Source: a virus
Taxonomy: Duplodnaviria > Caudoviricetes
Reading direction: 5' to 3' (one strand)
Virus record (IMG/VR): IMGVR_UViG_3300043485_000022
Coordinates: 1 to 60,147 of that record
DNA: 60,147 nt
The notes under the pieces are model-generated. The model was given only the letters and a program-made list of their open reading frames with translations. It did no database searches and was not told the origin of the DNA. Positions 2,467-53,617 of this stretch are shown here, in pieces; positions within the stretch are counted from its first letter, which is position 1, and each line of letters opens with the position of its first letter. The translations under genes and the position numbers were made by a program.

Positions 2467-5058
2467 ATGAACCAGCAAGACAGCGACAAGATCAAGTCCA
2501 TCATCACAGAGCTGCGGGATTTGGTTTCAGAGACAACCCGAGCTGTCATTCTCAAGTTGGATGATTGCCGGACTACAGTCGAGACCAAGCTCGCAAGCCT
2601 GTCAGAACTCAGCCAGCATGTAGACCCGCCTGCGCCCCCTATACAACCTCCTGTCACGCCTCCGGTTCAGCCCCCGAGTCAACCCCCGAGCACTCCGCCA
2701 ATCAGCCCGCCAACGTTAGAAGTCCTCACGCGACTCACAGCCGTCGAGTGCTCTAGTGTCAGTCGACAAGCAATGCTGATCTCAAGTGGAGTTCCGATTG
2801 CTCAGTCAGTAGGGCTGAAGGATGTTAGCAGGCTTGTGATCAACAGCGCTGACGGAGTGTTTGTTGAGTCGGATGTCAGACCAACCGCGTGGTGGTCTGA
2901 CGGAAGTATTCAATGGGTGCAGGTTGAGCTTCTGGACTCGATTGAAAGCGGAAAGCAGAAGAACTACAACCTCGTTCTCAGTAAGACCGCATCGGTTTCA
3001 ACCATCAATCCTCTGTCTTATATTATCAATAGCAGTCCAATCGGAAAGAACGCAGTTGTAGACACAGGCTCAGCGGTGTTCACGATTGGCGCCGAGGGTC
3101 TCATCCGCTCTATCAAGACTCGTGACGGTCTGACTCTGACAGGCTCAGCGACATCATTCGCGTTTGACGGGAAAACAGACACCTTCTCAGACACACAGGT
3201 CCGTCGAATGGAGTTCGAGTACATCGGACCGCTTGTCTGCTATCTCGTGGTAGAGACGATATCAAAGTCATTCACCACGGCTGCAACGGTTAAGGAGTTT
3301 GGACGGATCTCAACCACCCGCCGCTATCGGTTCGTCAAAGGCTCCTCTCTAGCAACTGTCACGTCTGTCATCAAGTGGGAAGGCAGCAAGAACGGGACAG
3401 AAGCGATGATGTCAGACGGGAAGACTGTTAATGGTGTGCTGGGAACAAGCTGGTTTGACACAATCAAGATTGATCCGTCTCTGCTCGATAATCCCTCACT
3501 CTTTCATCTGGACCAACCGCTGAGATCTAATCGAAAGCAGTCAAGAGTCCTCAAGACAGAGGGCGCGTCCATATCTCTGCCTCTCAAAGACAAGAAGAAT
3601 ATGATCATTATGGGATTGAGACGAATGGACTTGTACGAGCCTCAATCTCTGTCACAATCACAAGGCGAGTTGAGGATCTATCACGCGTCAGATAAGTTTT
3701 GGCTTGCGCACCATCAAGGTGCATCGACAACCTGTCTTATAGGCGTTTGTGGTGTCAATCAATCTGATGCTAATCTGCTTGCTGATCTCAACCACCCAGT
3801 GAGACTGTTTGCTGATCCAAGTTATTATCAGGTTGCTGGCAAGTCTGTCCCCTTCTCTAGCAACTCTCTGGGCTCTCAGTACGTTGCTGCTTTGACTCAG
3901 ATCTGCAACAAGACTCTTTCGCTAATCGCCCGTGATGGTCTCTACGGGCTACAAACCTACGCTTGGTGGCCGCGCTACTGGGATGACAACGAGATTGAGA
4001 TGAGTGACAAAGAAGCTAACTGGGACACGCTCTACAAGACAGGCGCTTTCACTGACTATTACAGCACGAGCAGATCAGCCGCCACTCTCTCGCTGATGAC
4101 GCAGAACTCTCTCTGGCTGGACAATCTCGCTCACCCCTCAGCTCTGCGGATGTTGTGGACGCAGATCATGCACACGAGTCCTGAGGACAATTGGGTGTAT
4201 GGCAACTGGGCGTCAGCGGGCTATGGTTGTGGCAGATCAGATTTCAACTCCTCACACTCGTACTACGAGAACCTGTTCTGGTACTACCTGCTGACAGGTA
4301 ACAGGTTGGTGGTTGACATTCTCGCTCGGGGTGAAGAGCGAATGATCAACGAGGTCAAGTCGCAGCCACTTGCAGGACGGTTCCCGCATCAACGATTGCG
4401 CGCCTGGAGGTTCCTGTCGCAAGTTCATGGAGATCCTGTCAAGCGGAAGCTGTTCCGCGACGCTTGGATATCAAGCATGCAACGCGCGATCAACGAATGC
4501 TATGTCGAGGGAACATACAACGGAGAGCCTGCTGCATTCTGGACTGACGGTGTGAAGAAGGCAGGTACCATCGCCACTCCAAACCTCTACGCACTATCTA
4601 TCTGGGATCTCGAAAGCCTCTGGGAGTACGGCAAAGAAATTCCCTTTGTTTCAGGACCAACTAATTCGCAATCTCATCCGTGGAATATTCTGATCAAGGT
4701 TGTGTCAACCATTCAACGTTACGGATCGTTTATCGTTGGTGGTGACTCCACTCTCGCCAAATCCTCCAAGTGGGCACGTGCCTTCTCATTTACCTGGGAC
4801 GATGCCAACAAGATTATCAACCTCAAAGTCCAGCCCGATAGCGAGAACGTCTCAACCATGTACCCTGGTGACTTGCCTGGAATGTGCGCGAGTTGGGCAC
4901 GTGCGGCTGTGATCAGCGGAGATCCTGCGATGAAGCAGAAGGCACAGGAGTTGATCACCTACACACTCAGCTTGATCAAGGAAGGGGGCCAGCCCATGAA
5001 CAAGTTGTCTGGACTGGCCGATAGTACACTGGCGGATGCGATTACGTCTTTGATCTAG
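2467..5058 (+). CDS. Large YetA/PcRGLX-like protein (RIFT barrel plus alpha/alpha toroid), putative polysaccharide lyase or depolymerase
   Basis: SGVP..G.....L......WWSDGSIQWV N-terminal pattern, Trp/Tyr-rich helical C-terminal half, N-terminal coiled coil and Pro-rich linker. Confidence 0.55.
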   Translation: MNQQDSDKIKSIITELRDLVSETTRAVILKLDDCRTTVETKLASLSELSQHVDPPAPPIQPPVTPPVQPPSQPPSTPPISPPTLEVLTRLTAVECSSVSRQAMLISSGVPIAQSVGLKDVSRLVINSADGVFVESDVRPTAWWSDGSIQWVQVELLDSIESGKQKNYNLVLSKTASVSTINPLSYIINSSPIGKNAVVDTGSAVFTIGAEGLIRSIKTRDGLTLTGSATSFAFDGKTDTFSDTQVRRMEFEYIGPLVCYLVVETISKSFTTAATVKEFGRISTTRRYRFVKGSSLATVTSVIKWEGSKNGTEAMMSDGKTVNGVLGTSWFDTIKIDPSLLDNPSLFHLDQPLRSNRKQSRVLKTEGASISLPLKDKKNMIIMGLRRMDLYEPQSLSQSQGELRIYHASDKFWLAHHQGASTTCLIGVCGVNQSDANLLADLNHPVRLFADPSYYQVAGKSVPFSSNSLGSQYVAALTQICNKTLSLIARDGLYGLQTYAWWPRYWDDNEIEMSDKEANWDTLYKTGAFTDYYSTSRSAATLSLMTQNSLWLDNLAHPSALRMLWTQIMHTSPEDNWVYGNWASAGYGCGRSDFNSSHSYYENLFWYYLLTGNRLVVDILARGEERMINEVKSQPLAGRFPHQRLRAWRFLSQVHGDPVKRKLFRDAWISSMQRAINECYVEGTYNGEPAAFWTDGVKKAGTIATPNLYALSIWDLESLWEYGKEIPFVSGPTNSQSHPWNILIKVVSTIQRYGSFIVGGDSTLAKSSKWARAFSFTWDDANKIINLKVQPDSENVSTMYPGDLPGMCASWARAAVISGDPAMKQKAQELITYTLSLIKEGGQPMNKLSGLADSTLADAITSLI

Positions 5059-5267
5059 TTATAGTAGGGACCGCAGCATCCCGGTCCACCTGTTGCACAC
5101 GAGCCATAAGCGGTATTGGAAAACCCAGTGCCGCAGGTCTCTGTGGGGTAACAAGCTTGTGCATAGCATGTATCGGTTGTGCCCAAAGGTGGATCGGGCT
5201 TACCTCCATTCAGGTAACGAAGTGTTTCACGATTGAGAGAAAGACGTCTGATCTGCGTTTTCTTCAC
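5055..5267 (-). CDS. RiPP (lanthipeptide-like) precursor peptide 1
   Basis: Leader MKKTQIRRLSLNRETLRYLNGG; core has 6 Cys and 10 Ser/Thr; AGGAGG SD before GTG; own promoter. Confidence 0.75.
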   Translation of the reverse strand: MKKTQIRRLSLNRETLRYLNGGKPDPPLGTTDTCYAQACYPTETCGTGFSNTAYGSCATGGPGCCGPYYN

Positions 5268-5291: not shown

Positions 5292-5321
5292 ATTCTACAA
5301 CGTACGGACCGGACGCGTCAA
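5292..5321 (-). promoter_or_regulatory. sigma70 promoter for precursor 1, operator in spacer
   Basis: Minus strand TTGACG-N18-TAGAAT; spacer holds GTACGGACCGGAC (5302-5314 on +). Confidence 0.75.
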
Positions 5322-5407: not shown

Positions 5408-5436
5408 TTGACACGACGTACGGACCGTACTATAGT
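5408..5436 (+). promoter_or_regulatory. Near-consensus sigma70 promoter with palindromic operator, probably leaderless
   Basis: TTGACA-N17-TATAGT; spacer holds GTACGGACCGTAC; ATG at 5444 lies 7 nt after the -10. Confidence 0.85.
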
Positions 5437-5940: not shown

Positions 5941-5969
5941 TTGACGTACGGACCGGACAGGAGTAGAGT
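5941..5969 (+). promoter_or_regulatory. sigma70 promoter with operator
   Basis: TTGACG-N17-TAGAGT; GTACGGACCGGAC at 5946-5958. Confidence 0.8.
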
Positions 5970-8122: not shown

Positions 8123-9637
8123 ATGGCTGTTCTAGACGCCAAGAGGCAAGACCCCTCCGTAGCACTCCCGCCTGCACCTGTCTCTCTAGACAGCCCTGCC
8201 GAGGCTCTATCCGTCAGCTTCACCTCCCTTGAAGACGACATCCGCAGGTCGGTCTATCAGCGCAACCCGGCTCTCTGGGCGAGGAAGAAGCTCAAGGCTC
8301 ACCTCTGGAGCCTACAGACCAAGATCATCGAATCTGTACGAGACAACCGCCGTACAGCCGTCAAGTCGTGCCATTCTGCCGGGAAATCGCACGTAGCAGC
8401 TATTCTGGCGGCTTGGTGGATCGAGTCTCACAAGCCCGGTGAAGCTTTTGTTATCACCTCTGCGCCGACAGCTCCACAAGTCCGAGCAATCCTGTGGCGC
8501 TATATCAACCGTCTACACGCGAGCGGCGGGCTCTCAGGTCGGTTGAACCAAACCGAGTGGTGGGCCAAGATGCCTGAAGGTCACGAGGAGATGGTTGCGT
8601 TTGGGCGGAAGCCTGCCGATATGGACGTTGCAGCGTTCCAGGGGATTCATGCTAAGTACGTGCTGGTGATTTTTGATGAAGGTGCGGGTATCCACAAGGA
8701 TCTGTTTGATCAAGCGGACTCGTTGATCTCTAATGAGTTCAGCCGAATGATCGTGATCGGCAACCCTGATGATCCTCAATCTCACTTCGCAACTGTTTGC
8801 AAGCCCGGGTCAGGTTGGAATGTCATCAAGATCTCAGCGTTTGACACGCCCAACTTCACAGGCGAACCAATTCCCGACTATCTGCGGCATGTGCTCGTCA
8901 GTCCCGTGTGGGTTGAGGAGAAGAAGAAGTCTTGGGGCGAAACAAACCCGCTCTACATAGCTAAGATCCTGGGTGAGTTCCCAGAACTATCTACAGATGG
9001 GCTGATTCCTATCTCGTGGATCAAAGCCGCGCAGGAGAGAACGATACAACCCAGCTTGCCAATTGAGCTGGGGGTTGATGTTGGTGGTGGTCGAGACAAG
9101 AGTGTCATTGCTGTTCGCAAGGGTGGATGGGTGCGGATACTCAAGCACCGCAAGACTCAAACACCCAACACAATGACAACACTGGGGAATGTTATTCTGG
9201 CTTTGAGAGAAGAAGACGCCTCTAAAGTCAAGATAGACGATATTGGAATCGGTCGTGGTGTGAAAGACAGGGCTGAAGAGATGGCTTCGGATCAGTCCTC
9301 TAGCGATGATGAACGGCGTGAAGCAAGCTTGATAGAAGGCGTGAACGTAGGCAGATCTGCTGTTGACACGAAGCAGTTTGTCAACCTTCGTGCTGAGGGC
9401 TACTGGAAACTACGTCAGATGTTCGAATCAGGACAGACTGACATTGATCCTGATGACGATGACCTTGCAGCTCAACTCGTGGACTTGAAGTGGAAAGCAA
9501 TCGGCGGTCGTATCCAGATCGAGAGTAAGGAAGAGATCCGCAAGCGCGGCAAGAACTCGCCTGATGATGCTGATGCTGTCATGCTGGTGTTTATAGATCC
9601 GCCTGAGAAAGAGAAAGTCCACACGCTAGGATGGTAA
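8123..9637 (+). CDS. terL: Terminase large subunit
   Basis: Walker A variant SCHSAGKS, Walker B VIFDEG, coupling motif IGNP, nuclease motifs LGVDVG and SPDDADA. Confidence 0.95.
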   Translation: MAVLDAKRQDPSVALPPAPVSLDSPAEALSVSFTSLEDDIRRSVYQRNPALWARKKLKAHLWSLQTKIIESVRDNRRTAVKSCHSAGKSHVAAILAAWWIESHKPGEAFVITSAPTAPQVRAILWRYINRLHASGGLSGRLNQTEWWAKMPEGHEEMVAFGRKPADMDVAAFQGIHAKYVLVIFDEGAGIHKDLFDQADSLISNEFSRMIVIGNPDDPQSHFATVCKPGSGWNVIKISAFDTPNFTGEPIPDYLRHVLVSPVWVEEKKKSWGETNPLYIAKILGEFPELSTDGLIPISWIKAAQERTIQPSLPIELGVDVGGGRDKSVIAVRKGGWVRILKHRKTQTPNTMTTLGNVILALREEDASKVKIDDIGIGRGVKDRAEEMASDQSSSDDERREASLIEGVNVGRSAVDTKQFVNLRAEGYWKLRQMFESGQTDIDPDDDDLAAQLVDLKWKAIGGRIQIESKEEIRKRGKNSPDDADAVMLVFIDPPEKEKVHTLGW

Positions 9638-9653
9638 CTTGAGGAGACAAGAC

Positions 9654-9866
9654 ATGACAAAGAAAGAAGCAACTCGAATTCTGATTACACATGCGGCTCG
9701 TTCTGTTTCTGGAACTGGCGCAGGATTGAGATCGTCAACTCAAGAATACGAGAAGAATCAAGTTAGAGAAGCTATTATCAAATTGTGGTCGGACGGCAAG
9801 TACGGTTATGGTCCGACTGAATCATATCTTTTCAATCTCGGTCTTGCAGGACTTAACACTATATAA
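9654..9866 (+). CDS. Small hypothetical protein between terL and portal
   Basis: GAGGAG SD and GACAAGAC directly before the ATG. Confidence 0.55.
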   Translation: MTKKEATRILITHAARSVSGTGAGLRSSTQEYEKNQVREAIIKLWSDGKYGYGPTESYLFNLGLAGLNTI

Positions 9867-31109: not shown

Positions 31110-31149
31110 AAAAAGAGGGGGAGGGTCTTGACGCAGACCCTCCCCCTCT
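31110..31149 (-). terminator. Intrinsic terminator of the minus-strand cassette
   Basis: Perfect 15-bp stem (31114-31128/31135-31149), followed by a T-run only on the minus strand. Confidence 0.82.
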
Positions 31150-31164
31150 CCTCTCTCACATATT

Positions 31165-31614
31165 TTATTTTGCAGTGCAGGCGGTGGACTGACGAGTGAA
31201 CAGCGCATCCAACGGGAGCTGCAATCCACCCGTGGCGTTCTGCATGTAACCCCAGCCCCATACACACCGTCCCACATAGCCGGGCTGACACTGAACACCA
31301 GAGGTCGTGGGCGAGTCTCCGCCGGTCGTGCCGTAGGACGGACAATCGACCAGCGTAGCCGTGTCGAGACACAGGTTGTGCAGAGCCGTGGATGCGAGGG
31401 GACAATCCACCTTGATGATCTGTGATCCACGATCATCCGTCCTGATACTGAGCGTAATGCGAGTGATGGTGTTGCTTGAATTGCGGGTCACTTCCTGACT
31501 CACCACATTGCCAACGATCTCGTAGTAGTTGTAGTCGGCAGCCGAGGCAAGCGAGGCGAAGAGGAGACAGACTGTGACGGCGAGCAGCACGGATGTGAAG
31601 AGGTTCTTTTTCAT
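31165..31614 (-). CDS. Secreted Cys-rich protein (moron)
   Basis: Sec signal MKKNLFTSVLLAVTVCLLFASLASA; 6 Cys in mature part; AGGA SD. Confidence 0.75.
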   Translation of the reverse strand: MKKNLFTSVLLAVTVCLLFASLASAADYNYYEIVGNVVSQEVTRNSSNTITRITLSIRTDDRGSQIIKVDCPLASTALHNLCLDTATLVDCPSYGTTGGDSPTTSGVQCQPGYVGRCVWGWGYMQNATGGLQLPLDALFTRQSTACTAK

Positions 31615-31642: not shown

Positions 31643-32209
31643 TTAGTTGCAGCCGGTTCCGTGTTGGATGAGATCGATTCTTCCGATGAGTCCTGCGCTC
31701 ATCAAGCACTCAGCAGTGGCGGGGTTTTGGCAAGCCCATTGGTAGGTGGTTGAAGTTTCGCCCCACGGAAGGGTCTGATTCACCGTTACGCAGGACTTGC
31801 TACAAGATCCCAGAATGTAGGTAATAGCACTTTTCATATTCGCGTTCAAGCTAGACCACGAACAAGAGTTGATCGTGGCGAGAGCGACACAAGTAGAGTC
31901 CAGAGAGCCGTTGCAACTTGCCGACTCAGACTGCAATGAGAGGTTCGTGCTGGAGTTGTAGATCGTCAGAGTCGTCGTGACGGTAGAACCCGAGGTCGTG
32001 ACAGTGGCTCCGTAGACATTAGCTGCGCTGCTCGTGTACACGTCTTGGTAGAGAGTGGTGTTGATGTCGCCGAACTGACGCCGCTCCGTGGTGACTTGAT
32101 TGGTACGACCTAGGCGTAGAGAGGGAGATTGATCAGCGTGAGCAGGGGAAGATGAAGAGAGAGTTGAACTGAAAAGAAGAACGAGAAGTAGAACGATCTT
32201 TCGTGCCAT
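31643..32209 (-). CDS. Secreted Cys/Ser/Thr-rich protein (moron)
   Basis: Sec signal ending AHA; 8 Cys; GAGG SD. Confidence 0.75.
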   Translation of the reverse strand: MARKIVLLLVLLFSSTLSSSSPAHADQSPSLRLGRTNQVTTERRQFGDINTTLYQDVYTSSAANVYGATVTTSGSTVTTTLTIYNSSTNLSLQSESASCNGSLDSTCVALATINSCSWSSLNANMKSAITYILGSCSKSCVTVNQTLPWGETSTTYQWACQNPATAECLMSAGLIGRIDLIQHGTGCN

Positions 32210-32291: not shown

Positions 32292-32321
32292 ACTCTAGTC
32301 AACTCCTTTGGCTCAGGTCAA
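32292..32321 (-). promoter_or_regulatory. sigma70 promoter for the secreted-protein pair
   Basis: Minus strand TTGACC-N18-TAGAGT; AGATTTCTCTTGAC is shared with 32667-32680. Confidence 0.7.
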
Positions 32322-32356
32322 GAGAAATCTCAGCGCTCGGCGTAAAAGATCAGCAG

Positions 32357-32389
32357 TCCACTCTCTTTGTGGTCGGCAAAGAGAGTGGA
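32357..32389 (-). terminator. Hairpin directly after precursor 2 (terminator or stabiliser)
   Basis: Perfect 13-bp stem TCCACTCTCTTTG/CAAAGAGAGTGGA. Confidence 0.6.
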
Positions 32390-32398
32390 TGAAGCGTT

Positions 32399-32593
32399 TT
32401 AGTACAAAGGCGGGATGCAGGGCAGCAATACAGTGTCGCCCTCTCCACCTCCTGTCCCTTGCCGAGGGCGGGGATTGCAGGGGCACGTCACATGCGAAAA
32501 CTCGATGTTGGGAGGATTGGGCGGATCTTCACCTCCACGCAGACTGCGCAATGTCTCAGACGTCAGAGCCAACTTTCGCAATTTCTTCTTCAT
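32399..32593 (-). CDS. RiPP (lanthipeptide-like) precursor peptide 2
   Basis: Leader MKKKLRKLALTSETLRSLRGG aligns with precursor 1; core has 3 Cys and 4 Ser/Thr; AAGGA SD. Confidence 0.72.
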   Translation of the reverse strand: MKKKLRKLALTSETLRSLRGGEDPPNPPNIEFSHVTCPCNPRPRQGTGGGEGDTVLLPCIPPLY

Positions 32594-32751
32594 TGTGCGT
32601 TTCCTTTGATCTCGAAATTGGAGCTTCAGTGCTCCATAAAAATCATCTTACAGAACTCTTGTGAGAGTCAAGAGAAATCTTCGTCCTCTAACGATGAGGC
32701 CCTGTTCTGTCCTCTGGGGTGTGCTAAACTCCTCCCCAGGTCTACTCTCCC

Positions 32752-34435: not shown

Positions 34436-34831
34436 ATGGATGACAACCGACAAACCTTGCCACCGCCTGACCTGGAGGAGGTGTTCAGCACAGCGATTGG
34501 AACCAACATGCGGACCTACATCACTGCCGGTGTGGGAATCGTGACGATGTTCCTCTCTGGCTTTAACCTGATCGAGCTGAATGAGAAACAGATCACTGCC
34601 ACCACGGGTGCTCTGATCTTCCTGGCTTTCATCTTCACGCGGCTGGCGATCGCTCGCGGACAGAAAGACTCAGCTCTGGCAGCTCAGGCGTCGGTACAGA
34701 CTTTGATCCACGCAAAGCAACAGACCGACGAGATCAAGGCTTCCATCGAAGCAGCGTCGCCTGAAGGTAGACTCTTGGCAGCGATATCGCCTCGAATTCC
34801 TCGGCAGCGAAGCGAGGGGGAGGATCGATGA
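34436..34831 (+). CDS. Holin-like membrane protein (2 TM)
   Basis: Two hydrophobic helices, AGGAGG SD, follows tail module. Confidence 0.55.
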   Translation: MDDNRQTLPPPDLEEVFSTAIGTNMRTYITAGVGIVTMFLSGFNLIELNEKQITATTGALIFLAFIFTRLAIARGQKDSALAAQASVQTLIHAKQQTDEIKASIEAASPEGRLLAAISPRIPRQRSEGEDR

Positions 34832-35262
34832 AACCGTCCAATCGCTTCGCCCTCTCAGCAGCCCTGGTAGCCTTGCTTAGCTTGTGGGGCTGCTCGGCTG
34901 TCCCCCCGCCACAGAACTCCGCTCAGCCGTCCGCCCAGCACCAGCAACGGACGCTCTACAAGTCCTACGCGGACTGGCTCGTCTCGGCAGCAACCGTCCA
35001 CCGGCAGTTGATGATTGCTGCGGGTGGGGCTGCTGAATCAAGGCTGCTCACTGAAGATCAGCTCTCTATCGTCCGCCGCTCAGGCAAGCAGCTCGAACTC
35101 GCTCTTCGGGCTGCTCAGATCGCCCTGACAGCCTACGTGTCAGGCGGGGTGGAGCCGGGGTTCGTCGGCCAGGACTCGACCAGCTTGAGCGAAAAGATCA
35201 CCAACTGCATGCAACTGCTGGCGAGCTTCACACAACTCGTGCAGTCGATGGGGGTCAAGTAA
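34828..35262 (+). CDS. Lipoprotein, possible o-spanin
   Basis: Signal peptide with lipobox LWGC. Confidence 0.6.
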   Translation: MKPSNRFALSAALVALLSLWGCSAVPPPQNSAQPSAQHQQRTLYKSYADWLVSAATVHRQLMIAAGGAAESRLLTEDQLSIVRRSGKQLELALRAAQIALTAYVSGGVEPGFVGQDSTSLSEKITNCMQLLASFTQLVQSMGVK

Positions 35263-46563: not shown

Positions 46564-46592
46564 TTGACTCGGTACGGACCGTACTGTAGTCT
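46564..46592 (+). promoter_or_regulatory. sigma70 promoter with operator, probably leaderless
   Basis: TTGACT-N17-TAGTCT; GTACGGACCGTAC at 46572-46584; ATG at 46599. Confidence 0.78.
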
Positions 46593-50956: not shown

Positions 50957-53617
50957 ATGTCTGTCATTGTTCCTGGCTTTGGACGGACTCCCAATCGCGT
51001 CCTCCTCTGCGGAGAAGCCCCAGGCCGCACCGAGTTCGAACGTGGCAGACCCTTTTCCGGAAAATCTGGTGAAGAGCAGAAATGGTATCTATCACCTTAC
51101 AGAATAAACCCTGATCACTGGTACATGACAAACGTTGTCAAGCTCTATTTGGAGGGAAACCCAGATCCCACCCCTGAGCTGATTTCGGAGTGGACCCCGG
51201 AGTTGATCCGCGAAGTCCACGCTTGCAACCCTCAGCTCATCATCGCTGTTGGCAGATTTGCTATCCAATGGTTTCTAGGCGATCGTGCTGACTTGGATTC
51301 TTGCCATAACATCCCTCACAAGCCTGGAGCGTTTGACCTGTCTCGCGCAAGTCGCTCTCCACAAAACTCGATCATTCTGCCGATCTATCACCCAGCGGCG
51401 GGGTTCTATAAAGCCAAAGTACGGCCCTTGATCCAAGAAGATTACCGAGTCGTAGCGAGCACTGTTAAGAAGCTCCAAGCGGGCGAGCAGATCGAGTTCC
51501 GCCATGACCCCTACGCCGGGCAGGAAGACTATCGTGACGTGACAGGCCGTCAACTCGAATCAGCAATCAGGTCTGCCAAGCCTGCCGACCTACGATACAT
51601 CGGCCTCGACACAGAAGGCTACCCCAAGCGAGGCATGCACTGGTCAACACAGGTCTCGTGGCAGCCCGGGGTAGCTTACGTCCTCAGAACCTCCCAGCCC
51701 GACCTCCAGCGTGGTATAGCAGCCCTCCAGAGGCTCGCAGACACCAGCCGCACGACATTCATCACCCACGACGCCTCCACCCCTTCAGGCTGCCTCTACG
51801 ACCTCACCATGTCCAGTGTCGTCGGGCTGAACTACTCGCGTGCTCCTCTCTACAACACCATGTACGCCGCTTACCTAACTCGCCTAGAGCCTAAGGGCCT
51901 CAAACCCCTCTGCTGGCGGTTCAACGGCATGTACATGGAAGACTACCACTCGCTCATTGGAGACGTGGCTAGGCAGAAGCAGCTTGATTATCTGATCGAA
52001 GTCTCGTGTCGAACGTGGCCTAAAGCAGAACCTCGCCTTGAGCATAACAATGACGGCAGTAGCAAGCTGAAGACTTACCAGCACATCACCAAAGCTGTCA
52101 ACAAGCTTATCGTAGACATCGTAACAGGCAAGGAGACTAAAGACGGTCCCACGAATCCCTTGAAGCGCTGGAGAGACCTCGACCCGCTACAGGTCAAGCA
52201 CGTAGAGTCGGTCATGGGCCGGATGCCGATTGCAACATTGGATGATGTTCCGTTGGATCAAGCTATCATCTATGCTGCTCGTGATAGCGACGGGACTAGA
52301 AGATTGATGTTCCAACTAGACGAACGGCTCAAATCTCTCGACCTCCAGCACCGCATGCCCGATGACATGCAAGTCGCTCCTATCTTCTGGGAGATGCAGC
52401 AGAACGGTATGACTGCTGATCGACAAATGTTCTTCGACCTAGGCGAAAGCATGTCCGAGCAGATGTACGCCATCGGAGCAAGACTGTCACATGAGTTCTT
52501 CAGCTCACGGCGGTTCAACCCAGGCTCACCCAAGCAGGTTCAAGTCCTATTGAAGCGCCGTGGCTTGAGAGCTTCGAAGCAGACTGACACGGGAGACGAA
52601 TCAACCGCTAAGAAGTCTATCGAACATTTGAGATTTTTAGACCCCGCGATCGGTCTGGTGTTTGATTGGCGGGAACGTCAGCACATCCGCGATTCGTTCT
52701 GCAAACCCATCCTCAGCATCATCCCTGGAGATCAGAGATTTTGGAATGTCCGCTCTAATCTACGCATCGCTGATACAGAGACTCGCAGACTATCAAGCTC
52801 AGCCCCTAATCTGCTCAACATACCCGTGCGTACAGACATCGGCCGGGCTGTGCGATCGTGCTACCGGCTTGCTGAAGACTCAGGACAAGTCTTGTACGCC
52901 GCTGACTTATCACAGATTGAACTCCGAATATTGGCCGATGAAAGCAACAGCAAGTTTCTCATTGGCGAATTCCTCAAGCCCAAGTCAGACCCGCACAAGC
53001 AAATCGCCATGCGCGTCTTCGGCATAGCTCGCGAAGAGGACGTAGACGAGTTCAAGCACCGCCTCCCTGCCAAGACAACCATCTATGGCATCTCTTATGG
53101 TCAACAGGATCAGGGGTTATCAGACCAGCTTCGCATGCTCGGGCTTGACAACTGGGACGTAAGAGCCTGCGGAGAACTCCGCCGAGAGATCTTGTCTATC
53201 ATCGGCATCAATGACTACAAGGAAAGGTTGATCTCCAGCGCTCGCTCGCGTGGATACATCCGCGACCGTGGCGGGATGTACCGCTACCTGCCAGACTTGC
53301 GGTCCCACGATCGTAAACTCTCAGCAGAGGCAGAGCGGCATGTCGTCTCCAGTCGCATCCAAGGCACAGCCCAAACCGCTATTCAGAACTCCATGCGACA
53401 CTTGCGCCCGTCCATCCAAACCCTGTCAGACAGTGGACATGACATCAAGTGGCGGTTGCAAGTGCACGATGAGCTGATCTTGACCTGTCCGCGAGAAGAC
53501 GTAGAGATTGTAGACTACCTGTGCCTCGACGCGATGACGAACCACCACGGATTGAAGTTGAAGATTCCGATTGTCGCCAAGGGACACACAGCAACCACTT
53601 GGGGAGAACTGAAATGA
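50957..53617 (+). CDS. polA: Family A DNA polymerase with N-terminal uracil-DNA-glycosylase-like domain and 3'-5' exonuclease
   Basis: UDG: GEAPG, PFSG.SG, TNVVK, YHPAA. Exonuclease: LDTE, YAARD. Polymerase: DLSQIELR, AKTTIYGISYG, VHDEL. Confidence 0.95.
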   Translation: MSVIVPGFGRTPNRVLLCGEAPGRTEFERGRPFSGKSGEEQKWYLSPYRINPDHWYMTNVVKLYLEGNPDPTPELISEWTPELIREVHACNPQLIIAVGRFAIQWFLGDRADLDSCHNIPHKPGAFDLSRASRSPQNSIILPIYHPAAGFYKAKVRPLIQEDYRVVASTVKKLQAGEQIEFRHDPYAGQEDYRDVTGRQLESAIRSAKPADLRYIGLDTEGYPKRGMHWSTQVSWQPGVAYVLRTSQPDLQRGIAALQRLADTSRTTFITHDASTPSGCLYDLTMSSVVGLNYSRAPLYNTMYAAYLTRLEPKGLKPLCWRFNGMYMEDYHSLIGDVARQKQLDYLIEVSCRTWPKAEPRLEHNNDGSSKLKTYQHITKAVNKLIVDIVTGKETKDGPTNPLKRWRDLDPLQVKHVESVMGRMPIATLDDVPLDQAIIYAARDSDGTRRLMFQLDERLKSLDLQHRMPDDMQVAPIFWEMQQNGMTADRQMFFDLGESMSEQMYAIGARLSHEFFSSRRFNPGSPKQVQVLLKRRGLRASKQTDTGDESTAKKSIEHLRFLDPAIGLVFDWRERQHIRDSFCKPILSIIPGDQRFWNVRSNLRIADTETRRLSSSAPNLLNIPVRTDIGRAVRSCYRLAEDSGQVLYAADLSQIELRILADESNSKFLIGEFLKPKSDPHKQIAMRVFGIAREEDVDEFKHRLPAKTTIYGISYGQQDQGLSDQLRMLGLDNWDVRACGELRREILSIIGINDYKERLISSARSRGYIRDRGGMYRYLPDLRSHDRKLSAEAERHVVSSRIQGTAQTAIQNSMRHLRPSIQTLSDSGHDIKWRLQVHDELILTCPREDVEIVDYLCLDAMTNHHGLKLKIPIVAKGHTATTWGELK

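What the first reader, a model, noticed from the sequence alone, without database searches (positions are those of the whole stretch)
32399..32593. Second orphan RiPP precursor: same leader, different core
Seen: MKKKLRKLALTSETLRSLR-GG-EDPP aligns with precursor 1 (MKK..R/KL.L..ETLR.L.GG..DPP), but the core differs (SHVTCPC...TVLLPC). The two genes are 27 kb apart. Established: conserved leader with hypervariable core is the RiPP hallmark. Inference: two independent loci suggest selection for feeding host RiPP machinery, possibly a modified-peptide phage communication system analogous in role to arbitrium, or an anti-defence decoy.
Basis: partly seen in the sequence, partly recalled or inferred. 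Interest (0 to 1): 0.8.

Follow-up and report, generated by a model that had tools for sequence, protein, structure and literature searches.

The report
Phage-borne orphan lanthipeptide-type precursor gene
A 60-kb uncultivated phage carries two small genes for peptides whose front ends match the recognition leaders of bacterial lanthipeptide precursors, but it has none of the enzymes or exporters that process such peptides, so they probably depend on the host's machinery.

Summary
ORF2 (32399-32593, minus strand, 64 aa) and ORF1 (5055-5267, minus strand, 70 aa) share a leader: 14 of 25 residues identical.

A leader HMM built from 135 peptides from outside the window picks out only these two among 1433 six-frame ORFs. 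E-values are 2.4e-8 and 2.7e-10; the next best is 0.32.

The leader belongs to a large family of small Cys/Thr/Ser-rich peptides:
- 392 cluster representatives reach E<=1e-3.
- 28 of 37 sampled members (the two phage ORFs are among the 37) match NCBIfam NF038153, the class I lanthipeptide leader L1a.
- The phage ORFs themselves do not reach that model.

The family is concentrated in one family of Thermoanaerobaculia (Acidobacteriota): 46 of 61 genomes, against 8 of 121 in the class and 2 of 151 in the phylum. Those genomes carry LanB, LanC and C39 exporters; the phage has none.

One other phage fragment (L038) carries such a gene.

Maturation by host machinery is inferred, and the peptide's function is untested. 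ORF2's core is atypical: Pro-rich and poor in Ser/Thr.

This scan has already noted phage-borne orphan lanthipeptide-type precursors on other DNA, so this is a further instance of that. I rate it a new variant of a known kind.

The parts
32399..32593 (-). ORF2: a 64-aa precursor-like peptide. The leader is MKKKLRKLALTSETLRSLRGG (LxLxSx5L then GG), followed by a 43-aa Pro-rich core with 3 Cys.
   Evidence: leader HMM 30.0 bits, E 2.4e-8; best codon score of the six frames; BLASTP against an enzyme-adjacent LanA (L036:3148-3348) gives 13 of 22 identical, E 1e-6.
32642..32671 (-). Promoter-like site P1 upstream of ORF2 (TTGACT, 18 nt, GATGAT). It overlaps the 14-mer AGATTTCTCTTGAC at 32667-32680.
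   Evidence: This is a consensus match only; expression is not shown.
32357..32389 (-). A 13-bp perfect hairpin just after the ORF2 stop, followed by a weak U-tract. Possibly a partial terminator or attenuator between ORF2 and the downstream genes.
   Evidence: -21.6 kcal/mol, z -4.43, 0 of 200 shuffles fold as well.
32292..32330 (-). Second promoter-like site P2 (TTGACC, 18 nt, TAGAGT), carrying the same 14-mer AGATTTCTCTTGAC at 32317-32330.
   Evidence: There are 2 exact copies of the 14-mer in the window, both in this cassette.
31643..32209 (-). 188-aa protein with an N-terminal signal-peptide-like segment. No family was found.
   Evidence: no Pfam, NCBIfam or PHROG match; positive codon score only in this frame.
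31165..31614 (-). 149-aa Cys-containing protein with a signal-peptide-like N-terminus. It is conserved at 38% identity in the related phage L001.
   Evidence: Only 5 proteins in its family, itself included, in 5.8 billion clusters. The AF2 model is poor, pLDDT 49.8.
31110..31153 (-). Intrinsic-terminator-like hairpin (19-bp stem running into a U-run) that closes the minus-strand cassette.
   Evidence: -37.9 kcal/mol, z -5.41, 0 of 200 shuffles fold as well.
5055..5267 (-). ORF1: a 70-aa precursor-like peptide. GTG start after AAGGAGG; leader MKKTQIRRLSLNRETLRYLNGG (LxLxRx5L then GG); 48-aa core with 6 Cys and 10 Ser/Thr.
   Evidence: leader HMM 36.3 bits; BLASTP against the enzyme-adjacent LanA gives 19 of 46 identical, E 7e-8, and runs into the core; present in the public protein collection as P0001.
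5292..5321 (-). Promoter-like site of ORF1 (TTGACG, 18 nt, TAGAAT). A one-mismatch copy of the palindrome GTACGGNCCGTAC (5302-5314) sits in its spacer.
   Evidence: One search finds 4 copies of the palindrome in the window against 0.03 expected.

Best explanation
ORF2, like ORF1, is a real phage gene for a precursor peptide of the class-I-lanthipeptide leader type (LxLx[K/R]x5L ... GG). In ORF2 the K/R position is Ser.

The phage encodes no dehydratase, cyclase or peptidase-exporter. The peptide would therefore be recognised through its leader by the host's LanB/LanC-type enzymes. Alternatively, or in addition, it would be cut after the Gly-Gly and exported by the host's C39-peptidase ABC transporter.

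This trans arrangement is already normal in the bacteria that carry the leader family. They hold dozens of precursor genes per genome, and most of those lie far from any enzyme gene.

The likely host is an Acidobacteriota bacterium of the Thermoanaerobaculia family in which the leader is concentrated.

Shown: the gene anatomy, membership of the leader family, the absence of machinery in the phage, and its presence in candidate hosts. Inferred: recognition, modification, cleavage, export, the host, and the biological role. My favoured role is a secreted, modified, bacteriocin-like or interfering peptide made by infected cells.
For: (1) Leader family. Profile A3 finds 392 proteins at E<=1e-3 among 1.84 billion cluster representatives. 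Of the best 150, nearly all are 47-84 aa, with the leader at the N-terminus and Cys/Thr/Ser-rich cores.

(2) Of the 37 members of alignment A4, 28 match NF038153 lant_leader_L1a, best E 1e-10.

(3) Walker et al. 2020 (PMC7268733, passages read) describe class I LanAs with an LxLxKx5L leader motif. Many of those leaders end in Gly-Gly, often with a C39 protease in the cluster.

(4) A full cluster uses this leader at G005:C28: two precursors, two LanB, one LanC and a C39 transporter within 10 kb. One of its precursors scores 30.2 bits on NF038153. ORF2 matches that precursor at 13 of 22 residues and ORF1 at 19 of 46.

(5) Five Acidobacteriota genomes hold 55, 41, 48, 8 and 58 leader matches at E<=1. 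They also hold 6-11 LanC-domain matches, 1-5 LanB matches and 1-3 C39 matches each. The phage has 0 of each.

(6) Only 11 of the 120 best leader matches lie within 3 kb of a LanC, LanB or C39 match, and 13 of 120 within 10 kb. Trans-processing of orphan precursors would therefore be the norm there.

(7) Taxonomic concentration: 46 of 61 genomes in the family of G002 at E<=1e-5, 8 of 121 in the class and 2 of 151 in the phylum at E<=1e-4. Four unrelated control genomes gave 0 of 4.

(8) Read from the sequence, both phage leaders place Leu at -4, -7 and -12 and Glu at -9 relative to the GG. This is close to the double-glycine leader pattern, which I state from recall.

(9) Complex prediction of the C39 domain of the G005 transporter with the ORF2 leader alignment returned weak support. 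The score was 0.45 and the best of 3 controls 0.02. The mark was reached by 58 of 80 solved complexes and 2 of 110 mismatched pairs. At 0.60 or under, however, only 7 of those 80 solved complexes reached it, as did both of the mismatches that passed. The runs agree in at least 84% of contacts and the partner pLDDT is at least 58. My own alignment was used, so these counts hold only roughly. Leader-C39 complexes have been solved (recalled), so the pass may reflect likeness only.

(10) The genes look like integrated phage genes. Each has its own promoter-like site. ORF1's promoter spacer contains one of 4 copies of a palindrome that also sits at other promoter-like sites. ORF2 heads a cassette closed by a strong terminator-like hairpin.

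(11) An unrelated phage fragment (L038: portal, Mu F domain and terminase) carries a 51-aa member at HMM E 7.2e-10.
Against: - The curated model NF038153 does not report either phage ORF. ORF2's only NCBIfam hit is TIGR04149, at 14.2 bits against a cut-off of 25.
- Both phage leaders match only positions 1-22 of my 36-position leader HMM. They lack the second half (L..V.GG) that most members have.
- ORF2's core is atypical for the family. It is 7% Cys, 9% Ser+Thr and 23% Pro, against family medians of 16%, 22% and 6%. Its Ser+Thr lies below the family's 5th percentile and its Pro above the 95th.
- In ORF2 the K/R of the LxLxKx5L motif is Ser.
- The host is unproven. The phage is 53% G+C, whereas the six bacterial loci are 63-70%.
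- 20 kb of phage DNA gave only marginal 30-34 nt matches in 13 leader-positive genomes.
- The two secreted cassette proteins have no relatives in five such genomes.
- The related phage L001 has no such leader. The same slot there holds Sec-signal Cys-rich small proteins instead.
- There are no expression data.
- The family HMM is partly circular, because its members were collected with a profile that included the phage leaders.
Confidence: 0.6

Rival explanations
1. Unmodified double-glycine peptide. ORF2 is simply a PCAT substrate: a class II bacteriocin-like or signalling peptide, possibly disulfide-bonded. It would be cut after GG and exported by a host C39 ABC transporter without any lanthionine chemistry.
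For: The GG follows Leu at -4, -7 and -12 (read from the sequence). ORF2's core has only 4 Ser/Thr in 43 residues and is Pro-rich, which is atypical for the lanthipeptide family. C39 transporters are present in 5 of 5 candidate-host genomes. Complex prediction gave weak support: score 0.45, best of 3 controls 0.02; the mark was reached by 58 of 80 solved complexes and 2 of 110 mismatched pairs. At 0.60 or under, only 7 of those 80 solved complexes reached it, as did both mismatches that passed. The runs agree in at least 84% of contacts and the partner pLDDT is at least 58. In the related phage the same slot holds Sec-exported Cys-rich mini-proteins, which suggests that what is selected is an exported Cys-rich peptide rather than lanthionine chemistry.
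Against: The conserved part of the leader, LxLx[K/R]ETLRxL, is the part shared with enzyme-adjacent LanA genes. ORF1's core is typical of the lanthipeptide family: 12.5% Cys and 21% Ser+Thr, counted from the ORF1 sequence and compared with the family statistics.
Confidence: 0.15
2. Decoy or jammer. The phage peptides are not meant to become products. They would compete, through their leader, for the host's lanthipeptide enzymes or C39 transporter. That would block production or export of host peptides, possibly including anti-phage lanthipeptides.
For: The leader's recognition half is kept while the second half is lost, and ORF2's core is a poor lanthipeptide substrate by composition. There are two independently transcribed copies with diverged leaders. 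No integrase or serine recombinase was found, so a lytic lifestyle is possible, and a bacteriocin would then bring little benefit. Class I lanthipeptide clusters with anti-phage function have been reported in Actinobacteria (bioRxiv 10.1101/2024.06.26.600839; abstract read).
Against: There is no direct evidence. Anti-phage lanthipeptides are not known in Acidobacteriota. ORF1 has a fully typical core, which a decoy would not need. The genome is estimated 91% complete, so an integrase could have been missed.
Confidence: 0.13
3. Phage-phage communication peptide, analogous in role to arbitrium.
For: It is a small phage-encoded peptide that would be exported. The two loci have different promoters.
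Against: The peptide has no Sec-type hydrophobic signal (read from the sequence). No receptor-like or DNA-binding gene was recognised next to either ORF. No lysogeny genes were found. The peptide family is overwhelmingly bacterial, and some members sit beside lanthipeptide enzyme genes.
Confidence: 0.04
4. Non-functional passenger or chance ORF: a recently captured fragment of a host precursor gene with no role for the phage.
For: ORF2 was not called as a gene in public collections. Its codon score is low for a phage gene, at the 7th percentile. The related phage lacks it.
Against: There are two copies, 27 kb apart, with leaders only 56% identical, so this is not a recent duplication. Each has a promoter-like site and a ribosome-binding site. 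ORF1's promoter carries the phage's own operator-like palindrome. ORF2 heads a well-formed cassette with hairpin and terminator. A member also occurs in an unrelated phage fragment.
Confidence: 0.08

Closest known systems
Class I lanthipeptide precursors (LanA) with the LxLxKx5L ... Gly-Gly leader (Walker et al. 2020, PMC7268733; NCBIfam NF038153 lant_leader_L1a)
   Same: Small size, an N-terminal MKK start, the LxLx[K/R]ETLRxL motif, a Gly-Gly, and then a variable Cys-containing core. ORF2 matches an NF038153-positive precursor lying beside LanB/LanC/C39 genes at 13 of 22 residues, and ORF1 matches it at 19 of 46.
   Different: Neither phage ORF reaches NF038153. Their leader is the short form, with GG directly after ETLRxLx; 24 of the 145 best family members have this form, and 11 of them have no second G[GA] nearby. 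ORF2 has Ser in place of the motif's K/R and a Pro-rich core poor in Ser/Thr. No enzyme gene exists in the same genome. The paper describes the motif in Bacteroidetes; here the family is concentrated in one Thermoanaerobaculia family.
Prochlorosins (many ProcA precursors, one promiscuous ProcM, in marine picocyanobacteria)
   Same: It works in a similar way. There are dozens of precursor genes with one conserved leader and hypervariable cores, scattered through the genome and processed in trans. Here there are 41-58 leader matches in four of five genomes, and only 11 of the 120 best lie within 3 kb of an enzyme or C39 gene.
   Different: The leader is different (Nif11 type in prochlorosins, as recalled and as stated in the abstract of PMC10783134 seen in a search listing). 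The enzyme class is class II LanM there. Nothing in the listings I saw places prochlorosin genes on phages.
Sublancin cluster on Bacillus subtilis prophage SPbeta, and other phage-borne bacteriocin clusters (bioRxiv 10.1101/2020.10.01.322628; passages read)
   Same: A phage-encoded, ribosomally made, Cys-containing peptide that would be exported by a dedicated transporter. That sublancin itself has a double-glycine-type leader is recalled, not read in the passages. Phage-borne BGCs in that survey are mostly bacteriocins.
   Different: SPbeta carries the whole pathway: precursor, modification enzymes, transporter and immunity gene. This phage carries precursors only. No integrase was recognised here, whereas 64 of the phage BGCs in that survey were in temperate phages and 5 in lytic ones.
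Double-glycine leader peptides exported by peptidase-containing ABC transporters (class II bacteriocins, PCAT substrates)
   Same: A GG preceded by hydrophobic residues at -4, -7 and -12 and an acidic residue at -9 (read from the sequence; the consensus is recalled). Weak complex prediction support for docking of the leader on a C39 domain (scores and calibration counts are given in the For line).
   Different: No transporter gene is in cis. Beyond the GG, the leader carries the lanthipeptide-type LxLxKx5L recognition motif.
TIGR04149 (GG_sam_targ_CFB) rSAM-modified RiPP precursors of Bacteroidota
   Same: A similar MKK..L.L.KET...L...GG leader outline. It is the only curated model that reports ORF2 (E 0.031).
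   Different: The score of 14.2 bits is well under the cut-off of 25. The phage uses Shine-Dalgarno sites and TTGACA-type promoter-like sites. I recall that both are atypical for Bacteroidota. Two Bacteroidota control genomes gave 0 leader matches.

Membership tests
Class I lanthipeptide precursor, LxLxKx5L-GG leader type (NF038153 lant_leader_L1a) | Scores at or above the NF038153 curated cut-off (22 bits) | tested here: not met
   hmmscan at E up to 10 reports no NF038153 hit for ORF2 or ORF1, and none for ORF2. The six-frame search of the phage with NF038153 gave 0 matches, but that first look also missed the L038 peptide, which scores 13 bits in hmmscan. By contrast, 28 of 37 family members in A4 match, and the enzyme-adjacent precursor scores 30.2 bits.
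Class I lanthipeptide precursor, LxLxKx5L-GG leader type (NF038153 lant_leader_L1a) | LxLxKx5L motif in the leader (Walker et al. 2020; passage read) | tested here: inconclusive
   ORF2 reads L8-A-L10-T-S12-ETLRS-L18: the spacing is kept but K is replaced by Ser. ORF1 reads L9-S-L11-N-R13-ETLRY-L19, with K replaced by Arg, as in most family members.
Class I lanthipeptide precursor, LxLxKx5L-GG leader type (NF038153 lant_leader_L1a) | Core rich in Ser/Thr and Cys, able to form (methyl)lanthionine rings | tested here: inconclusive
   ORF2's core has 3 Cys and 4 Ser/Thr in 43 residues. Each Cys has a Ser or Thr upstream, but Ser+Thr at 9% is below the family's 5th percentile of 14%. ORF1's core, with 6 Cys and 10 Ser/Thr in 48 residues, is typical.
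Class I lanthipeptide precursor, LxLxKx5L-GG leader type (NF038153 lant_leader_L1a) | LanB dehydratase and LanC cyclase encoded in the same cluster or genome | tested here: not met
   PF04738 and PF05147 each give 0 matches in the phage. The five Acidobacteriota genomes have 1-5 and 6-11 matches each. The related or peptide-bearing viral records G001, G271 and G272 also have none.
Class I lanthipeptide precursor, LxLxKx5L-GG leader type (NF038153 lant_leader_L1a) | Dehydration and thioether formation in the mature peptide | not testable with these tools
   This needs expression and mass spectrometry.
Double-glycine leader peptide / PCAT substrate | N-terminal leader ending in GG with hydrophobic residues at -4, -7 and -12 and an acidic residue near -8 | tested here: met
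   ORF2 has G21 and G20 at -1 and -2, L18 at -4, L15 at -7, E13 at -9 and L10 at -12. ORF1 has the same spacing. Both are read; the consensus positions are recalled.
Double-glycine leader peptide / PCAT substrate | C39-peptidase ABC transporter available | tested here: inconclusive
   There is none in the phage. It is present in 5 of 5 leader-positive Acidobacteriota genomes, but the host is not established.
TIGR04149 (GG_sam_targ_CFB) | Scores at or above the curated cut-off (25 bits) | tested here: not met
   ORF2 scores 14.2 bits, E 0.031, and 12.9 bits in the six-frame search. ORF1 has no hit.
Arbitrium-type phage communication (AimP/AimR) | Propeptide with a Sec signal, encoded next to its receptor gene | tested here: not met
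   There is no hydrophobic signal segment in ORF2 or ORF1 (read from the sequence). The neighbouring genes have no recognised family. No AimR model was searched specifically.
Complete phage-borne RiPP/bacteriocin cluster (sublancin type) | Precursor together with modification enzyme, transporter and immunity gene on the phage | tested here: not met
   The phage has no LanB, LanC or C39. An immunity role for the two secreted cassette proteins is neither shown nor excluded.

The most novel reading that the evidence does not exclude
Soil phages repeatedly carry enzyme-less, leader-bearing lanthipeptide-type precursor genes as a way of exploiting a host trait. The trait is a promiscuous lanthipeptide and PCAT system that already serves dozens of scattered precursor genes. 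The phage peptides would either turn infected cells into producers of a phage-chosen secreted peptide, or jam the system and so switch off host peptide-based antagonism or anti-phage defence. In this phage, one copy is under the early operator-type control and one sits in a fast-evolving tail-module cassette. In a sister phage that cassette holds Sec-exported Cys-rich peptides instead.
Probability: 0.2. Interest if true: 0.85.

Novelty: new variant of a known kind. Interest (0 to 1): 0.6.

Why it matters
If the phage peptides are processed by host enzymes, this would be a case of a virus supplying only the substrate gene of a natural-product pathway and borrowing the rest. The phage-borne clusters described in the passages I read, such as sublancin on SPbeta, carry the complete pathway.

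It would also:
- link a phage to a poorly known Acidobacteriota lineage;
- draw attention to that lineage's very large, mostly enzyme-distant set of lanthipeptide-type precursor genes;
- offer a concrete test of whether phages use or block host RiPP machinery. That question gains weight from the report of anti-phage lanthipeptides (abstract).

My three literature searches on phage-borne or orphan precursors listed no paper whose title or abstract start describes phage-borne orphan lanthipeptide precursors. Subscription journals and supplementary files were not searchable, so this is not proof that none is in print.

Tried and rejected
Searches that found nothing
- The word-index homologue search for ORF2 found no candidate, not even ORF2 itself. 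The same search for ORF1 found only itself.
- The search for related loci with the two-leader alignment A1 gave 70 pattern stretches in viral contigs and 25 in genome contigs. None was confirmed by tblastn.
- My strict DNA pattern (MKK ... ETLR.L.GG) found 0 stretches in viral contigs.
- The metagenome scan with the neighbouring 270-aa protein only re-found the L001 contig. The lineage therefore has one known relative, and it lacks the leader.

Weak or uninformative results
- The protein-atlas search gave only leads below 0.9.
- PHROGs gave nothing for 10 ORFs.
- Pfam on the 37 family peptides gave nothing meaningful.
- The AlphaFold model of the 149-aa cassette protein was poor (pLDDT 49.8), so I ran no fold search.

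Host linkage
- 20 kb of phage DNA against 13 leader-positive genomes gave 3 marginal 30-34 nt matches, which I reject as chance. Only 20 of the 60 kb were searched.
- The cassette proteins gave 0 of 5 genomes each.
- Sequencing runs: no RNA holder is listed. The 2 DNA runs, from one study, may be the source of this DNA.

Readings considered and rejected
- The 863-aa neighbour of ORF1 as a LanB or LanC: it has only a PcRGLX N-terminal match and no LanB/LanC match in the genome.
- The GGG near ORF2's C-terminus as the cleavage site: it has no hydrophobic -4/-7 pattern.

Candidate kept as possible only
- L058 has a 73-aa Cys/Thr-rich ORF scoring 17.1 bits. The two chance hits of the same pattern score 12.5-12.7 bits, so it stays a possible member only.
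Full report
What is there

The window is the whole record: 60,147 bp in one contig, estimated 91% complete, with linear ends. It is a tailed-phage genome. It has a terminase-like gene, a portal (PF06381), a capsid-like protein (DUF6260), a 1808-aa tape-measure-sized gene and a 1233-aa fibre-like protein. It also has its own helicase and a PolA fused to a UDG domain. Nearly all genes lie on the plus strand. No tRNA genes were found. No tyrosine or serine recombinase was found. It has no close relative among 50,697 deposited phage records; the best portal identity is 32%.

ORF2 lies at 32399..32593 on the minus strand and encodes 64 aa. The only other frame in the window with the ETLR..GG signature is ORF1 at 5055..5267, also on the minus strand. 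ORF1 encodes 70 aa and has a GTG start seven bases after AAGGAGG. The two share 14 of 25 residues at the N-terminus (E 4e-7), and their cores do not align.

Is ORF2 a gene?

- Its frame has the best codon-usage score of the six frames. The score is low for this phage's genes, as are the scores of ORF1 and the two downstream genes.
- It has a sigma70-like site and an AAGGA upstream (read).
- A perfect 13-bp hairpin follows the stop.
- A second promoter-like site then follows, carrying the same 14-mer AGATTTCTCTTGAC.
- Two genes for proteins with signal-peptide-like N-termini come next (188 and 149 aa).
- A 19-bp terminator-like hairpin running into a U-run closes the unit.

This is a self-contained minus-strand cassette between the fibre-like gene and the next plus-strand genes.

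ORF1 has its own promoter-like site. The spacer of that site holds one of four copies of the palindrome GTACGGNCCGTAC, where 0.03 copies are expected by chance.

Against ORF2 being a gene, public gene calls include ORF1 but not ORF2.

What the leader is

Curated libraries barely see it. Pfam finds nothing. NCBIfam gives TIGR04149 at 14.2 bits for ORF2, against a cut-off of 25, and nothing for ORF1.

A degenerate DNA pattern for MKK-x(7-12)-ETLRxLxGG found 12 stretches in one genome per species of 185,579 species. By my own estimate about 4 would be expected by chance. Eight of the 12 are in frame. Six of those are small peptide genes with the same leader and Cys-rich cores. Four of the six are in records titled Thermoanaerobaculia bacterium, one in an Acidobacteriota MAG and one in a MAG titled uncultured proteobacterium. 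The other two in-frame hits lie inside larger proteins. Positions the pattern did not force are also conserved, namely [KR][KR][LM]x[LF]x[RK] before ETLR.

A 30-column profile of the eight leaders (A3) finds 392 cluster representatives at E<=1e-3 among 1.84 billion. Nearly all of the best 150 are 47-84 aa, with the leader at residue 1 and hypervariable Cys/Thr/Ser-rich cores.

Of 37 aligned members, 28 match NF038153 lant_leader_L1a (class I lanthipeptide), 7 match TIGR04149 and 6 match NF038158. Walker et al. 2020 describe this leader type: LxLxKx5L in place of FxLD, often ending in Gly-Gly, with a C39 protease in the cluster (passages read).

Link to enzymes

Five Acidobacteriota genomes that carry the leader have 55, 41, 48, 8 and 58 matches at E<=1. 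Each also has 6-11 LanC-domain matches, 1-5 LanB matches and 1-3 C39-peptidase matches in transporter-sized frames. The LanC and LanB models gave no match at their default threshold in 14 control genomes.

At G005:C28, two precursors, two LanB, a LanC and a C39 transporter lie within 10 kb. One of those precursors scores 30.2 bits on NF038153. It matches ORF2 at 13 of 22 residues and ORF1 at 19 of 46, the latter alignment running into the core. Several other precursors sit directly beside stand-alone LanC genes, for example at G004:C12 and G002:C103.

Only 11 of the 120 best leader matches lie within 3 kb of a LanC, LanB or C39 match, and 13 within 10 kb. MAG contigs are fragmented, which inflates the share of apparent orphans. 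Enzyme-distant precursor genes would nevertheless be the rule in these genomes, much as in the prochlorosin system.

Taxonomic range

At E<=1e-5 the leader is found in 46 of 61 genomes sampled from the family of G002. At E<=1e-4 it is found in 8 of 121 genomes from its class and 2 of 151 from its phylum; each count includes G002 itself. Four unrelated genomes gave 0 matches. The 10.6-Mb MAG titled proteobacterium gave 2.

The phage side

The phage has no LanB, LanC or C39 domain.

A leader HMM built only from 135 non-window peptides finds exactly two frames among the window's 1433: ORF1 at 36.3 bits and ORF2 at 30.0 bits. The next best scores 7.2 bits. Both match only the first 22 of the 36 model positions. 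They are a short-leader form in which GG follows ETLRxLx directly. Of the 145 best family members, 24 have this form, and 11 have no second G[GA] close by. Several of those 11 continue with a Pro/Thr-rich stretch, as the phage peptides do.

ORF1's core is typical for the family. ORF2's is not: it has 3 Cys, 4 Ser/Thr and 10 Pro in 43 residues.

In both leaders the GG is preceded by Leu at -4, -7 and -12 and Glu at -9. This is close to the double-glycine pattern that C39 transporters read; I state that consensus from recall.

A structure-prediction test was run on the C39 domain of the G005 transporter with the ORF2 leader alignment. It gave weak support only: score 0.45, best of 3 controls 0.02. 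The mark was reached by 58 of 80 solved complexes and 2 of 110 mismatched pairs. At 0.60 or under, however, only 7 of those 80 solved complexes reached it, as did both mismatches that passed. The runs agree in at least 84% of contacts and the partner pLDDT is at least 58. My own alignment was used, and similar complexes have been solved, so this may reflect likeness only.

Other phages

The one relative of this phage is L001, about 80% identical in DNA in the conserved blocks; its 270-aa neighbour protein is 93% identical. It has no such leader in its 40 kb. The same slot there holds two Sec-signal, Cys-rich small proteins and a 38%-identical homologue of the 149-aa protein. The cassette therefore evolves fast and always encodes small exported Cys-rich products.

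A looser pattern (MKK..LxLxxETLR) found 20 stretches in IMG/VR, and one is a real member. It is a 51-aa gene in L038, a phage fragment with portal, Mu F domain and terminase. It lies on the strand opposite to those genes and scores E 7.2e-10 among 3625 frames. A further pattern gave 3 stretches, with one possible member in a 96.7-kb viral contig (L058, 17.1 bits). None of these viral records has LanB or LanC, though their completeness is only 15%, 73% and 56%.

Earlier notes of this scan describe phage-borne orphan lanthipeptide-type precursors in at least 12 other genomes. Those notes are unchecked AI notes that agree with this reading; they are not independent evidence.

How it most likely works

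I commit, at 0.6 confidence, to this reading. ORF2 and ORF1 are real precursor genes of the LxLx[K/R]x5L-GG lanthipeptide-type leader family. They are made in infected cells. The leader is recognised by host LanB/LanC-type enzymes, by the host C39 transporter, or by both. The peptide is cut after GG and exported.

Shown: the gene anatomy, membership of the leader family by a custom profile, the absence of machinery in the phage, and its abundance in the bacteria that carry the leader. Inferred: the host, the modification, the cleavage, the export and the role.

The main rivals are these:
- An unmodified double-glycine peptide (0.15), favoured by ORF2's core composition.
- A decoy that jams the host system (0.13). 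A preprint abstract reports anti-phage class I lanthipeptides in Actinobacteria.
- A communication peptide (0.04).
- A passenger or chance ORF (0.08).

Weak points

- The curated model NF038153 does not recognise the phage ORFs.
- My family HMM is partly circular.
- The phage's 53% G+C is 10-17 points below that of the candidate-host loci.
- There is no DNA-level host link.
- There are no expression data.

Novelty and verdict

The peptide type is known. A phage that carries only the precursor genes is not described in the papers I could search: searches were listings, and passages were read. Supplements and subscription journals were not covered. Within this scan the pattern is already recurrent.

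What this window adds:
- two differently regulated copies in one phage;
- a sister phage in which Sec-exported Cys-rich peptides occupy the same slot;
- a sharp taxonomic pointer to one Thermoanaerobaculia family with a very large, mostly enzyme-distant precursor repertoire.

I rate it a new variant of a known kind, interest 0.6.

Noticed in passing
G002-G006 (loci L004, L009-L011, L015-L036) and the family sample: One family of Thermoanaerobaculia (Acidobacteriota) carries a very large repertoire of lanthipeptide-type precursor genes. There are up to 58 leader matches per genome, often in tandem runs such as five at G003:C472:1664-2718. Only about a tenth lie near LanB, LanC or C39 genes. This is a prochlorosin-like layout, but with a class I type leader.
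   Followed up: partly
L001:8579-9820 (minus strand): The sister phage has, in the slot of ORF2, two small Sec-signal proteins that are very rich in Cys (82 aa at 9572-9820 and about 86 aa within 9227-9562). It also has a homologue of the 149-aa protein. The flanking 270-aa protein is 93% identical, whereas the cassette protein is only 38% identical.
   Followed up: partly
L038:8126-8281 (+): An unrelated phage fragment (47% G+C; portal fused to a Mu F domain; terminase) carries a 51-aa member of the same leader family on the strand opposite its structural genes. After the leader it continues with EDQDP, which recalls ORF2's EDPP.
   Followed up: partly
L058:618-842 (-): A 96.7-kb viral contig (63% G+C) has a 73-aa ORF with a KKLRLVRETLSGL leader-like start and a Cys/Thr-rich core, after an AAGGAGG site. 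The profile score is weak, at 17.1 bits.
   Followed up: partly
window 5302-5314, 5418-5430, 5946-5958, 46572-46584: There are four copies of the palindrome GTACGGNCCGTAC, where 0.03 are expected. One lies in the spacer of ORF1's promoter-like site and one inside the spacer of the divergent plus-strand promoter-like site (5408-5436). This suggests a shared operator. The binding protein was not identified.
   Followed up: partly
window 31165-31614 (-): The 149-aa secreted cassette protein belongs to a tiny family. Only 5 proteins, itself included, reach E<=1e-3 in 5.8 billion clusters (the other four at E 3.8e-27 or lower), all unnamed and on short or phage contigs.
   Followed up: partly
window 50957-53617 (+): An 886-aa protein combines a uracil-DNA glycosylase superfamily domain (PF03167, residues 6-150) with a family A DNA polymerase (PF00476).
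   Followed up: no
window 34828-35262 (+): A 144-aa protein begins with a lipobox-like LSLWGC. It follows a 131-aa protein with a membrane-segment-like stretch. This could be a spanin-like pair, which would point to a diderm host. This is read from the sequence only.
   Followed up: no
L004:2443-4901: In one Thermoanaerobaculia MAG, a 31-aa member of the leader family is followed by a stand-alone Lant_dehydr_C domain protein (PF14028). A JmjC/cupin protein lies on the opposite strand. This is an unusual enzyme set for this precursor type.
   Followed up: no
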